Shown here: in pieces, positions 35,901 through 38,900 of the stretch | How positions within the stretch are numbered: the stretch's first letter is position 1 | How the letters are laid out: every line of letters begins with the position of its first letter | DNA from: Escherichia coli O127:H6 str. E2348/69 | GTDB taxonomy: Bacteria; Pseudomonadota; Gammaproteobacteria; Enterobacterales; Enterobacteriaceae | DNA length: 64,000 nucleotides | Assembly (NCBI RefSeq): GCF_000026545.1 | Contig: NC_011601.1 | Reading direction: 5' to 3' (one strand) | Made by a program: the position numbers

Positions 35901-38900
35901 GTGGCCCGGTGGTTGATGAAAATGCACTGATTGCTGCATTGCAGAAAGGGGAAATTCACGCCGCCGGGCTGGATGTCTTCGAACAAGAGCCACTGTCCGT
36001 AGATTCGCCGTTGCTCTCAATGGCCAACGTCGTCGCAGTACCGCATATTGGATCTGCCACTCATGAGACGCGTTATGGCATGGCCGCCTGTGCCGTGGAT
36101 AATTTGATTGATGCGTTACAAGGAAAGGTTGAGAAGAACTGTGTGAATCCGCACGTCGCGGACTAAGCCGCGACTGCGTGGAGTAAAGCCCGATAATCGC
36201 TCGGGCTTTTACTCTTTATTGGGTTGCAGTAACTGCTGTAGTCCAGGCCTGATTAAACGCCTGATGCTGTGCCGGTAATGGCGCAATCAGTTTGTTATAT
36301 TCACTTGCCTGCTGTGACGTCGGGAACTGGATGCCATTTGCGACAAAGCTCACCTGAGTACCTTGCTGAGCAATGTAGTCTCCAACCATCACCAGTTGTT
36401 GCGTGAAAGTTTGTGCCGCCGGAATCAACGGTTGCAATGCATCAGCTGGCGTCGTTACCACTTTGGTGAATGCCTGATCAAAGACCGGTTTCAGGTCATC
36501 ACTCTGTTTTAACGCAGAGTGCGCAGCATCGGCCTGCAACTTCGCATTTTGCAGCTGTTGCGCCAGCACACCCAGCGAACCGTTCATTTCACGCAGCGGA
36601 CCGCTTTGCGTAACGTAATCCTGCGGTACGCGAATTGCGTTAACGCTGTCTACAACCGGGCGCAGACCGGAATCCATCGCCTGATTCACCTGCTGAGAAT
36701 AACCATACAGAATCGCGTAATCAGAGACAAAAGGACCAAACTGTTTTTTCTGATCGGCAGTCAGGGTTGGTAGACGTTCACCGCTACGCATCACTGTATT
36801 CTGCAGGAAGTCGATAAACGCTTTACGCTGATCGCCTTCTTTATCAAAACACCCACTCAGGCTAACTACCATTAATAACGCCGCAAGAGGCGCAAACCAG
36901 CGAGAGCAGGACTTTCCTGTCGCCATTTTCTTACTCCTTTCACCCAAAAAAAGCGCACAACGACACACGCGTGTCTGACGTGACAAGGATAGTCCAGGAC
37001 AGGCTTGCAGGATACCCTTTCTACGTAATCTTCCTGGTAAAATCATGGAGAAAATGAAACAAGGTTAATTTGTTGTTTCATTGTTAAAAAATGATATTGC
37101 CGTTGCCTTTTTTGTAGCCAGAGATTTACGCCTTCGCAGAACGTTAGATTTTCGAAATCTTTACAAACCGGGAGTGGTAAGAGATATATCGGCATTTATC
37201 AGATCGTTAGGTGGCTATAAGTCACGCTAAATGACTGGCTGAATCGAATCATAGTCAGAGTATGCCCTGACTACACCCCGCTGTGTCTGTTTTTCCCGAC
37301 TATTCTTAATGAGCTTCGATGCAATTCACGATCCCGCAGTGTGATTTGAGGAGTTTTCAATGGAATATAAAGATCCAATGCATGAGCTGTTGAGCAGCCT
37401 GGAACAGATTGTTTTTAAAGATGAAACGCAGAAAATTACCCTGACGCACAGAACAACATCCTGTACCGAAATTGAGCAGTTACGAAAAGGGACAGGATTA
37501 AAAATCGATGATTTTGCCCGGGTTTTGGGCGTATCAGTCGCCATGGTAAAGGAATGGGAATCCAGACGCGTGAAGCCTTCAAGTGCCGAACTAAAATTGA
37601 TGCGTTTGATTCAAGCCAACCCGGCATTAAGTAAGCAGTTGATGGAATAGACTTTTATCCACTTTATTGCTGTTTACGGTCCTGATAACAGGACCGTTTT
37701 CCAACCGATTAATCATAAATATGAAAAATAATTGTTGCATCACCCGCCAATGCGTGGCTTAATGCACATCAACGGTTTGACGTACAGACCATTAAAGCAG
37801 TGTAGTAAGGCAAGTCCCTTCAAGAGTTATCGTTGATACCCCTCGTAGTGCACATTCCTTTAACGCTTCAAAATCTGTAAAGCACGCCATATCGCCGAAA
37901 GGCACACTTAATTATTAAAGGTAATACACTATGTCCGGTAAAATGACTGGTATCGTAAAATGGTTCAACGCTGACAAAGGCTTCGGCTTCATCACTCCTG
38001 ACGATGGCTCTAAAGACGTGTTCGTACACTTCTCTGCTATCCAGAACGATGGTTACAAATCTCTGGACGAAGGTCAGAAAGTGTCCTTCACCATCGAAAG
38101 CGGCGCTAAAGGCCCGGCAGCTGGTAACGTAACCAGCCTGTAATCTCTGCTTAAAAGCACAGAATCTAAGATCCCTGCCATTTGGCGGGGATTTTTTTAT
38201 TTGTTTTTCAGGAAATAAATAATCGATCGCGTAATAGAATCTAGTGTTATTTTTGTGAAGAATAAATTTGGGTGCAATGAGAATGCGCAACACCGTAAGA
38301 AAGGCGGGAATAATTTCCCGCCGAAGACGCTTACTCTTTCAATTTGCAGGCTAAAAACGCCGCCAGCTCATAACTCTCCTGTTTAATATGCAATTCACAC
38401 AGTGAATCTCTTATCATCCAGGTGAAAAATAAAAGCGTGAAACAAATCACTATTAAAGAAAGTAATCTATATTTCTGCGGCATTCCCAGCCCCCTGTGTT
38501 GATTTCCAACGAGTAAGAGGCTAACCTTATGGTGTCTATGCATAGAGGGGCCTCACTTTGATTTATAGTCAGGTGGGGCTTTTCTCTGTCTGCCTTTCGG
38601 TGAATACCTGAGACAAACAGTCTCAAGCACCCGTGGCTATTCTAGCTTAATAAGTTCGTTTCTTCTCCTTGATATAATCCTAAAAAAATCTCATAAAATT
38701 AATATATGAGATAATCTTTATTCAGCAGAAGATTATTAAAGGTTGCTGTATTATTTAGCGATAAAAAAAGCCTGCCAGATGGCAGGCTTTTTAATAACGG
38801 CGTTATTACTGCAACAGCGAAATATCCGCAACGCGCAGGAACAGTTCGCGCAGTTTCTCCAGCATGGTCAGACGGTTGATACGCAATTCTTTGTCATCAA

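What the first reader, a model, noticed from the sequence alone, without database searches (positions are those of the whole stretch)
38331..38805. hokA type I toxin locus appears uninterrupted by insertion sequences
A 50-aa Hok peptide with an upstream in-frame extension lies about 320 bp from the glyS stop, with no transposase genes between. My recollection is that in K-12 an IS150 copy sits between hokA and glyS. If that is right, this strain keeps the ancestral hok locus, and the overlapping mok frame and antisense Sok RNA should be looked for in 38480..38620.
Basis: partly seen in the sequence, partly recalled or inferred. Interest (0 to 1): 0.35.

Follow-up and report, generated by a model that had tools for sequence, protein, structure and literature searches.

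The report
Intact hokA toxin-antitoxin locus, already known
This E. coli strain carries a complete, insertion-free copy of the small hokA toxin gene with its antisense-RNA control elements, but this state is found in about half of all E. coli genomes and was described in 1999, so it is ordinary.

Summary
A 50-aa Hok peptide (minus strand, 38331..38483) with an in-frame 70-codon extension (mokA, start 38543) lies 323 bp from the glyS stop, and no IS lies between them. The window is 100% identical to E. coli E2348/69. K-12 does carry IS150 here, splitting mokA and sokA, and it has also lost 39 bp.

Every element of the R1 hok/sok model is recognisable:
- promoter -10 and +1
- tac and a metastable 5' hairpin
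- ucb, mok SD and dcb
- the hok-proximal 3' hairpin and fbi
- an antisense SokA gene with promoter, a 5' single-stranded tail and a terminator

Predicted folds give tac/fbi pairing in the full-length RNA (z = -8.2) and the tac/ucb switch in the truncated RNA.

It is not new. About 51% of 5,426 complete E. coli genomes have the uninterrupted locus. IS-free hokA/sokA was characterised in E. coli C (Pedersen & Gerdes 1999: no post-segregational killing) and noted in the B2 strain NRG857c.

Side observation: IS150-family elements insert at one precise position in several paralogous hok leaders.

Interest is low.

The parts
38639..38644 (-). hokA promoter -10 hexamer TAGAAT. The -35 is poor (GAGAAG at 38662-38667, 17-nt spacer).
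   Evidence: Read from the sequence. It aligns with the R1-type hok -10 TATGAT. It is 6 nt upstream of the start of the Rfam leader match. It was not picked up by the consensus scan, which fits a weak promoter.
38262..38632 (-). hokA mRNA, minimal full-length form from +1 (G at 38632) through fbi. The true 3' end is not determined and may run to the reverse side of the cspA terminator at about 38165.
   Evidence: Rfam RF01794 covers 38481..38632 on this strand at 120 bits. The fold has dG -137 kcal/mol, z = -8.24. Pairing is unchanged when the RNA is extended to 38160.
38627..38632 (-). tac (translational activator element), 5' GGGUGC
   Evidence: It pairs with fbi in the full-length fold and with ucb in the truncated fold. 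It aligns with R1 GGCGCUU.
38602..38632 (-). Metastable 5' hairpin of the nascent transcript, in which tac is sequestered by the sequence immediately downstream
   Evidence: The first 40 nt fold into a 13-bp hairpin, dG -19.4, z = -4.98. The core GAGAC/GUCUC corresponds to R1 GAGGC/GCCUC, a compensatory difference.
38573..38581 (-). ucb (upstream complementary box / anti-SD), AAGCCCCAC
   Evidence: It pairs with the mok SD region in the full-length fold and with tac in the truncated fold. AGCCCC is conserved with R1.
38551..38554 (-). mok Shine-Dalgarno GAGG
   Evidence: It is sequestered by ucb in the full-length fold and paired with dcb in the truncated fold. GAGGC is conserved with R1.
38331..38543 (-). 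mokA reading frame (70 codons plus stop), in frame with hokA and containing it
   Evidence: ORF list. K-12 annotates the mokA pseudogene with the same stop as hokA. The frame is intact in 8 of 11 alleles. In 3 alleles a 1-nt deletion makes it a 29-codon ORF that still overlaps the hok start.
38517..38521 (-). dcb (downstream complementary box), GCCUC
   Evidence: It pairs with the mok SD GAGGC in the truncated-mRNA fold. It lies in the block UAGCCUCUUAC, which is invariant between hokA and R1.
38331..38483 (-). hokA coding sequence (50 aa plus stop): MPQKYRLLSLIVICFTLLFFTWMIRDSLCELHIKQESYELAAFLACKLKE
   Evidence: Pfam PF01848, E = 3.7e-21. Annotated as hokA, WP_001135732.1. Cys14, Cys29 and Cys46 are present (read from the sequence; compare).
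38303..38322 (-). 3' stem-loop GGCGGGAA/UUCCCGCC plus U run. This is the expected 3' end structure of the processed (truncated) mRNA.
   Evidence: Terminator-like hit. Present in both folds. It aligns with the R1 GGCGGGC..GCCCGCCUUUU hairpin.
38270..38282 (-). fbi (fold-back inhibition element), UCUCAUUGCACCC
   Evidence: GCACCC pairs with the 5' GGGUGC, and UCUCA pairs with UGAGA at mRNA positions 8-12, in the minimum-energy fold.
38499..38527 (+). sokA promoter: -35 TTGATT (38499-38504), 17-nt spacer, -10 TAACCT (38522-38527)
   Evidence: Read from the sequence. It matches the R1-type sok promoter position for position (TTGCGC, 17 nt, TATCCT), with the shared spacer GTAAGAGGC. It is invariant in 11 alleles.
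38533..38588 (+). SokA antisense RNA (about 55 nt; ends inferred). It has a single-stranded 5' tail complementary to the mok start region, then a terminator hairpin and a U run.
   Evidence: Fold dG -25, z = -3.9, with a 7-11 nt free 5' end. It is complementary to the mok SD and AUG by construction. The literature gives a 52-nt target for hokA of E. coli C.

Best explanation
The region is the chromosomal hokA/mokA/sokA type I toxin-antitoxin locus in its uninterrupted, ancestral form. It lies between cspA and glyS in an E2348/69-type E. coli chromosome.

Proposed mechanism:
1. A weak promoter (-10 at 38639-38644) makes a stable hokA mRNA starting at 38632.
2. While the RNA is nascent, the 5' tac element is held in a local hairpin.
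3. In the full-length RNA, tac pairs with the 3' fbi element and the mok ribosome-binding site is closed by ucb. Neither mok nor hok is then translated, and Sok cannot bind.
4. Slow 3' trimming back to the GGCGGGAA/UUCCCGCC hairpin removes fbi. tac then switches to ucb and the mok SD is re-paired with dcb. Translation of mokA, and by coupling of hokA, becomes possible.
5. The short antisense SokA RNA is made from the opposite strand (promoter 38499-38527). It pairs with the mok initiation region, which blocks translation and marks the duplex for RNase III.
6. HokA, if made, is a 50-aa inner-membrane toxin.

Shown here: the ORFs, the family matches, every sequence element in R1-equivalent positions, the predicted alternative folds, and the absence of any IS.

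Inferred from the R1 model and from published work on the E. coli C hokA locus: transcription, 3' processing, Sok action and toxicity.

The physiological role is unknown. Published tests on the IS-free hokA of E. coli C found no post-segregational killing.
For: - Pfam HOK_GEF, E = 3.7e-21.
- Rfam RF01794 at 120 bits (cutoff 59) on 38481..38632. The same model hits the R1-type locus on the hok sense strand.
- 100% identity to E2348/69, with hokA annotated.
- No IS150 ends in the window.
- Alignment with R1-type hok/sok shows -10, +1/tac, ucb, mok SD, sok promoter/dcb, the Hok CDS, the 3' hairpin and fbi in the same order.
- The full-length fold has tac/fbi and ucb/SD-mok pairing, z = -8.24. This persists with a longer 3' end, z = -7.0.
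- The truncated fold switches to tac/ucb and SD-mok/dcb, as described for R1 in PMC9841398.
- The nascent 5' hairpin has z = -5.0.
- SokA folds as a 5' tail plus terminator.
- Leader positions 1-83 have 1 variable column among 11 alleles, against 34 of 288 elsewhere (Fisher p = 0.002).
- Literature: hokA/sokA of E. coli C has been characterised and HokA is toxic on overexpression.
Against: - No expression data were available for this strain.
- The sokA -10 (TAACCT) and the hokA -35 are weak matches, and the consensus scan found neither promoter.
- No intrinsic terminator follows fbi, unlike R1. The full-length 3' end is therefore undefined.
- Within-species covariation is too sparse to prove the structure: one compensatory pair, and 58 of 500 shuffles reach the observed score.
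- Published experiments on the equivalent E. coli C locus found no post-segregational killing and no rifampicin activation. Sequence intactness therefore may not mean activity.
Confidence: 0.9

Rival explanations
1. The locus is intact in sequence but physiologically silent. It would be a conserved relic whose toxin is never released under natural conditions, because hokA transcription is too weak, 3' processing does not activate it, or SokA is always in excess.
For: - The literature summary of Pedersen & Gerdes 1999 reports that IS-free hokA from E. coli C did not mediate post-segregational killing and was not activated by rifampicin.
- The promoter hexamers are weak.
- About 49% of E. coli genomes tolerate or favour disruption of the locus.
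- IS150 disruption of hok loci arises repeatedly in laboratory evolution.
Against: - The leader (tac to mok SD) is nearly invariant across diverged alleles, while the CDS and 3' UTR vary (p = 0.002).
- The Hok ORF is intact in all 11 alleles sampled.
- Both alternative RNA conformations are retained. This is hard to explain without purifying selection on regulation.
- Repeated disruption could itself indicate a cost of an active toxin.
Confidence: 0.4
2. The locus is decayed. Only the Hok ORF survives, and the mok, sok and fold-back elements are lost.
For: None found. The only hint is that the consensus promoter scan did not flag the hokA and sokA promoters.
Against: All elements are present at R1-equivalent positions. 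The leader matches the Rfam covariance model at twice the gathering score.
Confidence: 0.02
3. The 70-aa in-frame ORF encodes a distinct, functional long form of Hok rather than acting as a regulatory leader frame (mok).
For: The ORF is in frame with hokA and has its own SD and AUG. K-12 annotation gives mokA the same stop as hokA.
Against: - In 3 of 11 natural alleles, a 1-nt deletion puts mok out of frame and ends it after 29 codons, while hokA stays intact.
- The first mok codons differ between alleles: MHRHH, MYRHH and MPEHH.
- Together these indicate that translation of the frame matters, not its product, as in the R1 model.
Confidence: 0.03

Closest known systems
hokA/sokA locus of E. 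coli C (Pedersen & Gerdes 1999, Mol Microbiol 32:1090)
   Same: It is the same chromosomal locus, IS-free, with hok, mok, sok, tac and fbi. It is described as a hok homologue regulated by cis-encoded sokA, with a 52-nt target.
   Different: Only the strain background and a few polymorphisms differ; alleles differ by about 1-6% across E. coli. I could not read the primary paper, so an element-by-element comparison with its figures was not made.
hok/mok/sok of plasmid R1 (parB)
   Same: Same gene order and the same regulatory logic. The -10, +1 GGxGCUUGAG tac, metastable hairpin, ucb AGCCCC, GAGGC mok SD, UAGCCUCUUAC dcb/sok-promoter block, CCCGCCUUU 3' hairpin and fbi all align. The same Rfam model hits both.
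   Different: - hokA is chromosomal, not plasmid-borne.
- tac/fbi are GGGUGC/GCACCC instead of GGCGCUU/AAGCGCC, a compensatory change.
- No terminator hairpin follows fbi.
- The sokA -10 is weaker (TAACCT against TATCCT).
- No post-segregational killing has been reported for hokA.
hokA locus of E. coli K-12 and B (IS150-disrupted)
   Same: The same flanking genes and an identical HokA protein: WP_001135732.1 in both E2348/69 and C41(DE3).
   Different: K-12 and B carry IS150 after window position 38515 and lack 38516-38554. This removes the sokA -10, the SokA 5' end, and the mok AUG and SD. It also separates hokA from its promoter and tac. There is no target duplication.
hok-6 (hokA) of AIEC strain NRG857c (PMC7232551)
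   Same: It is reported as an intact hokA homologue lacking IS elements.
   Different: None of substance; it is a different isolate.

Membership tests
[quoted passage not shown] | Toxin of about 50 aa matching the Hok/Gef family profile | tested here: met
   PF01848, E = 3.7e-21, 74.9 bits against a cutoff of 22, covering the full 42-position profile.
[quoted passage not shown] | Hydrophobic N-terminal helix and conserved cysteines (C14, C29, C46 in Hok numbering) | tested here: met
   The sequence MPQKYRLLSLIVICFTLLFFTWMIRDSLC...AC shows Cys at positions 14, 29 and 46. PMC12214031 states that HokA has the cysteines DNA-encoded.
[quoted passage not shown] | A mok leader frame with its own SD that overlaps the hok start (translational coupling) | tested here: met
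   GAGG at 38551-38554 and AUG at 38543. The frame runs through hok. K-12 annotates a mokA pseudogene with the same stop. The coupling itself was not tested.
[quoted passage not shown] | A cis-encoded antisense Sok RNA gene covering the mok initiation region, with promoter and terminator | tested here: met
   The promoter at 38499-38527 is positionally homologous to R1 sok. A hairpin plus U tail and a free 5' tail are predicted. Expression cannot be tested here.
[quoted passage not shown] | Long-range 5' tac / 3' fbi pairing in the full-length mRNA | tested here: met
   GGGUGC (38632-38627) pairs with GCACCC (38275-38270), and UGAGA pairs with UCUCA, in the minimum-energy and centroid folds; z = -8.24 and -6.99.
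[quoted passage not shown] | Conformational switch: ucb closes the mok SD in the full-length RNA; tac/ucb and SD-mok/dcb pair in the 3'-truncated RNA | tested here: met
   Both conformations are predicted from the sequence. They match the description in PMC9841398.
[quoted passage not shown] | A metastable 5' hairpin sequestering tac in the nascent transcript | tested here: met
   13-bp hairpin, dG -19.4, z = -4.98.
[quoted passage not shown] | Leader matches the curated covariance model of hok/sok loci | tested here: met
   RF01794 at 120.2 bits against a gathering score of 59, E = 1.6e-28, full model length.
[quoted passage not shown] | Base-pair covariation supporting the mRNA structure within hokA alleles | tested here: inconclusive
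   98% of cells are paired, but there is only 1 compensatory pair and 58 of 500 shuffles reach the observed score. The alleles are 94-99% identical.
[quoted passage not shown] | Toxicity of Hok, 3' processing of the mRNA, RNase III cleavage of the duplex, and post-segregational killing | not testable with these tools
   Literature only: HokA is toxic on overexpression, and the E. coli C hokA locus gave no post-segregational killing.
IS150-disrupted hokA pseudolocus (K-12/B type) | An IS150 copy between hokA and glyS that splits mokA and sokA | tested here: not met
   There is no transposase ORF and no IS150 ends in the window. The window is collinear across both K-12 junctions.

The most novel reading that the evidence does not exclude
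IS150-family elements may recognise a specific sequence or structure in hok leaders. The candidate target is the ascending arm of the Sok terminator, which is the complement of the mok SD.

Insertions start exactly 2 nt after GCCTC, in the same orientation in the three sequenced copies, in four places:
- chromosomal hokA
- an R1-like IncF plasmid hok
- a Klebsiella hokA-like remnant (ISKpn8)
- a de novo laboratory insertion in hokC (orientation not known)

If this is targeting rather than selection, the hok leader is a natural docking site for an IS3-family transposase. The split of E. coli into IS-free (this window) and IS-bearing hokA lineages would then reflect that site. A second untested possibility is that the intact hokA of EPEC and other B2 strains has a real physiological role.
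Probability: 0.3. Interest if true: 0.45.

Novelty: already known. Interest (0 to 1): 0.1.

Why it matters
It matters little beyond correct annotation. The window shows the reference, undisrupted form of hokA/mokA/sokA, whereas the K-12 and B laboratory strains carry a disrupted copy. That is useful when choosing a strain to study chromosomal hok function, because E2348/69-type strains keep every regulatory element. It does not change what is known: IS-free hokA loci were described in 1999 and are present in about half of sequenced E. coli.

Tried and rejected
- **Covariation within hokA alleles** (11 sequences). There was too little divergence, so the result is inconclusive and is not used as support.
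- **Primary paper.** Pedersen & Gerdes 1999 is not held, and the supplement of PMC3562002 is not held. Statements about that work rest on later papers' summaries.
- **Counting class-R IS150 insertions with a junction query.** This gave 1237 genomes. That exceeds the maximum of about 970 left after the other classes. The excess comes from plasmid hok loci that carry IS150 at the homologous site. I therefore give only a range of about 900-970, taken from the spread listings.
- **REL606 coordinates from PMC5419217.** The positions listed for trg/mokB (1,272,468) and insA-7/hokE (582,237) map to chaB and cusA in NC_012967.1. Only the hokC site could be used.
- **Consensus promoter scan.** It found neither the hokA nor the sokA promoter. 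These were placed by homology to R1 instead.
- **Intrinsic terminator after fbi.** None was found. The only one is the reverse side of the cspA terminator.
- **Decayed-locus reading.** Considered and rejected.
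Full report
**1. What is in the sequence**

The minus strand carries a 70-codon ORF at 38331..38543. Its last 50 codons, from the ATG at 38483, are MPQKYRLLSLIVICFTLLFFTWMIRDSLCELHIKQESYELAAFLACKLKE. This matches Pfam HOK_GEF over the whole profile (E = 3.7e-21).

glyS ends at 38806 on the same strand, so the hokA start is 323 bp from it. cspA lies on the other side (Rfam cspA thermoregulator, 37771..38198).

No transposase-like ORF lies between hokA and glyS. Neither IS150 end occurs anywhere in the window, even with three mismatches allowed.

The stretch 38140..38830 is 100% identical to E. coli E2348/69, where hokA (WP_001135732.1) is annotated. The wider window is ordinary core chromosome, running dpp-eptB-lpf-yhjX-tag-bisC-yiaD-ghrB-yiaF-yiaG-cspA-hokA-glySQ-xyl-malS.

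**2. The K-12 comparison**

MG1655 has hokA, a mokA pseudogene, IS150 (3720633..3722075), a sokA pseudogene and then glyS.

Aligning K-12 and B (C41) to the window shows more than an insertion:
- The left junction is after window 38515 and the right junction is at 38554/38555.
- 39 bp (38516-38554) are missing, and there is no target duplication.
- The lost piece holds the sokA -10, the SokA 5' end, and the mok AUG and SD.
- The IS also cuts hokA off from its promoter and tac.

**3. Anatomy of the uninterrupted locus**

The Rfam model RF01794 matches 38481..38632 on the minus strand at 120 bits, twice its gathering score. That match begins GGGUGCUUGAG and ends at the hokA AUG. The same model hits an R1-type plasmid locus on the hok sense strand. 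The family called 'sok' therefore models the hok mRNA leader, not the antisense RNA, and its strand must not be read as Sok's strand.

Alignment with an R1-type hok/sok locus (L005) places the following elements in the same order:
- the -10 (TAGAAT, 38639-38644)
- the +1 and tac (GGGUGC, 38632-38627)
- the ucb (AAGCCCCAC, 38581-38573)
- the mok SD GAGG (38554-38551) and the mok AUG (38543)
- the invariant block UAGCCUCUUAC, which holds dcb (38521-38517) on one strand and the sok promoter spacer on the other
- the Hok CDS
- the GGCGGGAA/UUCCCGCC hairpin (38322-38303)
- fbi (38282-38270)

On the plus strand, the sokA promoter is TTGATT (38499-38504), a 17-nt spacer, and TAACCT (38522-38527). This corresponds position for position to R1's TTGCGC, 17 nt, TATCCT.

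The predicted SokA RNA runs from about 38533 to 38588. It has a free 5' tail followed by a terminator hairpin and a U run (dG -25, z = -3.9).

**4. Do the RNA switches exist?**

- **Full-length RNA.** Folding 38632..38262 gives dG -137 kcal/mol against -95.6 for shuffles (z = -8.24). The 5' GGGUGC pairs with the 3' GCACCC, UGAGA pairs with UCUCA, and the mok SD is paired to ucb. The same pairs persist if the RNA is extended to the cspA terminator (z = -7.0).
- **Truncated RNA.** Removing the 3' tail (38632..38298) moves tac onto ucb (GGG/CCC, GCUU/AAGC) and re-pairs the mok SD GAGGC with dcb GCCUC. This is the switch described for R1 (PMC9841398).
- **Nascent RNA.** The first 40 nt form a 13-bp hairpin that hides tac (z = -5.0).
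- **Compensatory differences from R1.** tac/fbi is GGGUGC/GCACCC against GGCGCUU/AAGCGCC. The metastable stem is GAGAC/GUCUC against GAGGC/GCCUC.
- **Within E. coli.** Eleven alleles are too similar for a covariation test: one compensatory pair, and 58 of 500 shuffles reach the score. The leader positions 1-83 have one variable column against 34 of 288 elsewhere (Fisher p = 0.002). This points to constraint on the regulatory RNA.
- **The mok frame.** It is in frame with hok in 8 alleles. In 3 alleles a 1-nt deletion shortens it to 29 codons that still overlap the hok start. This fits a frame whose translation matters, not its product.

**5. How common is this state?**

Of 5,426 complete E. coli genomes (the K-12-type count includes the B lineage):

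| State | Genomes |
|---|---|
| Locus in one piece | 2,789-2,831 (51-52%) |
| K-12-type junction | 1,667 (31%) |
| Second class of IS150 insertion (see below) | roughly 900-970 |

The second class has IS150 in the opposite orientation, with a clean CTT duplication at 38556-38558. Rare variants include a deletion that truncates hokA (L017) and a ~390-bp insertion between cspA and hokA (L015). The empty site in the window equals the second class minus the IS and one CTT copy, so the IS-free form is ancestral.

**6. What is known**

- Later papers summarise Pedersen & Gerdes (1999). K-12 hokA, hokC and hokE are inactivated by insertion elements. IS-free hokA from E. coli C was studied and gave no post-segregational killing and no rifampicin activation.
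- hokA/sokA of E. coli C is treated as a standard hok homologue with a 52-nt target.
- The B2 strain NRG857c was reported to have an intact hokA without an IS.
- HokA is toxic when overexpressed.

From memory, and not checked here, the 1999 abstract also states that the regulatory elements are conserved and that the mRNAs are processed at their 3' ends.

The finding is therefore a correct recognition of a known state.

**7. Mechanism and its uncertainty**

The most likely mechanism is the R1 model applied to hokA, as set out in the best explanation.
- Shown here: the elements and the predicted conformations.
- Inferred: transcription, 3' trimming, Sok-directed RNase III cleavage and toxicity in this strain.

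Three features weaken the parallel:
- the weak hexamers
- the lack of a terminator after fbi
- the negative killing assays in E. coli C

A silent-relic reading therefore stays open. It is counterbalanced by the strong conservation of the leader.

**8. Side observation**

The class-R junction query matched more than 1,000 plasmids at 80-90% identity. Inspection showed IS150 inserted in an R1-like IncF hok leader with a TGG duplication. It sits at the same relative position and in the same orientation as in hokA: GCCTC, one base, then the duplication.

A Klebsiella plasmid has ISKpn8 (94.7% identical to IS150) with a hokA-like left flank and an R1-like right flank. This implies recombination between two such insertions.

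A de novo IS150 insertion reported at REL606 position 16,972 in three evolved lineages falls at the same relative position in the hokC leader.

IS hotspots at hok/sok loci are documented in general. I did not see the exact-site rule stated in the papers I read. Whether it reflects targeting or selection is untested.

**9. Verdict**

- Observation: confirmed.
- Interpretation: supported.
- Novelty: already known.
- Interest: low.

Noticed in passing
window 38550-38558 (empty site); L003:3410-3425 and 4855-4870; L019:2535-2550 and 3985-3995; L020:2550-2565 and 3998-4010; L021:262-278: IS150-family elements sit at one precise position in several paralogous hok leaders. On the Sok strand the 3-bp target duplication starts 2 nt after GCCTC (the complement of the mok SD, on the rising arm of the Sok terminator). 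In the three sequenced copies the orientation is the same: hokA class R (CTT), an R1-like IncF hok (TGG) and a Klebsiella ISKpn8 hybrid. A published de novo insertion in hokC of REL606 falls at the same position. More than 1,000 PLSDB plasmids match the junction. Hotspots at hok/sok are known in general (PMC5419217; bioRxiv 10.1101/527788). I did not see the exact-site rule stated.
   Followed up: partly
window 38516-38554 versus L004:1100-2620 (K-12) and L002 (C41/B): The K-12/B hokA disruption is not a simple insertion. IS150 is flanked by different sequences with no 3-bp duplication, and 39 bp of the leader are missing (sokA -10, SokA 5' end, mok AUG and SD). It lies in the opposite orientation to the other common IS150 class, and its right junction is only 2-3 bp from that class's target.
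   Followed up: partly
window 38481-38632 (minus strand); L005:232-403: The Rfam family RF01794, named 'sok antitoxin', matches the hok mRNA sense strand from the +1/tac to the hok AUG. This holds both here and in an R1-type plasmid locus. A hit to it marks the hok leader, not the strand of the Sok RNA.
   Followed up: yes
window 38283-38354 (+): A 23-codon ORF (MRNTVRKAGIISRRRRLLFQFAG) lies antisense to the hokA stop and 3' UTR. It is annotated ysaE in K-12 and B and 'hypothetical protein' in E2348/69. In some alleles it is annotated shorter (60 nt). It overlaps the 3' hairpin of the hokA mRNA (38303-38322).
   Followed up: no
L009, L010, L013 (alignment A2 column 149): Three of eleven uninterrupted hokA alleles have a 1-nt deletion between the hok SD and AUG (GGGAAUG to GGGAUG). 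This puts mok out of frame (29 codons). The same alleles also have G-to-A in fbi (GCACCC to ACACCC). It is unclear whether these alleles are still regulated normally.
   Followed up: partly
window 38165-38270 (minus strand): Unlike R1, no terminator hairpin follows fbi. The next hairpin on this strand is the reverse side of the cspA terminator, which has a poor U tail. The 3' end of the full-length hokA mRNA is therefore undefined by sequence.
   Followed up: partly
window 9895-10813: There are two rdlD antitoxin RNA matches (10265-10330 and 10748-10813, plus strand), next to an STnc490 match (9895-10018, minus strand).
   Followed up: no
L015:108-479 (NZ_OZ501684.1) and L017:2369-2506 (NZ_CP182139.1): These are rare variants of the locus. 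One strain has a ~390-bp insertion between cspA and hokA carrying an ORF annotated yidD. Another has no IS but has a deletion that truncates hokA to 45 codons and removes part of the leader.
   Followed up: no
window ~23030-28520 (lpf), ~32125-34276 (bisC), ~30296-30998 (yhjY): From the E2348/69 annotation: a long polar fimbriae operon (lpfA-E) lies between yhjX and eptB, and bisC and yhjY are marked as frameshifted pseudogenes. In many RefSeq records the cspA gene next to hokA is named cspE.
   Followed up: no
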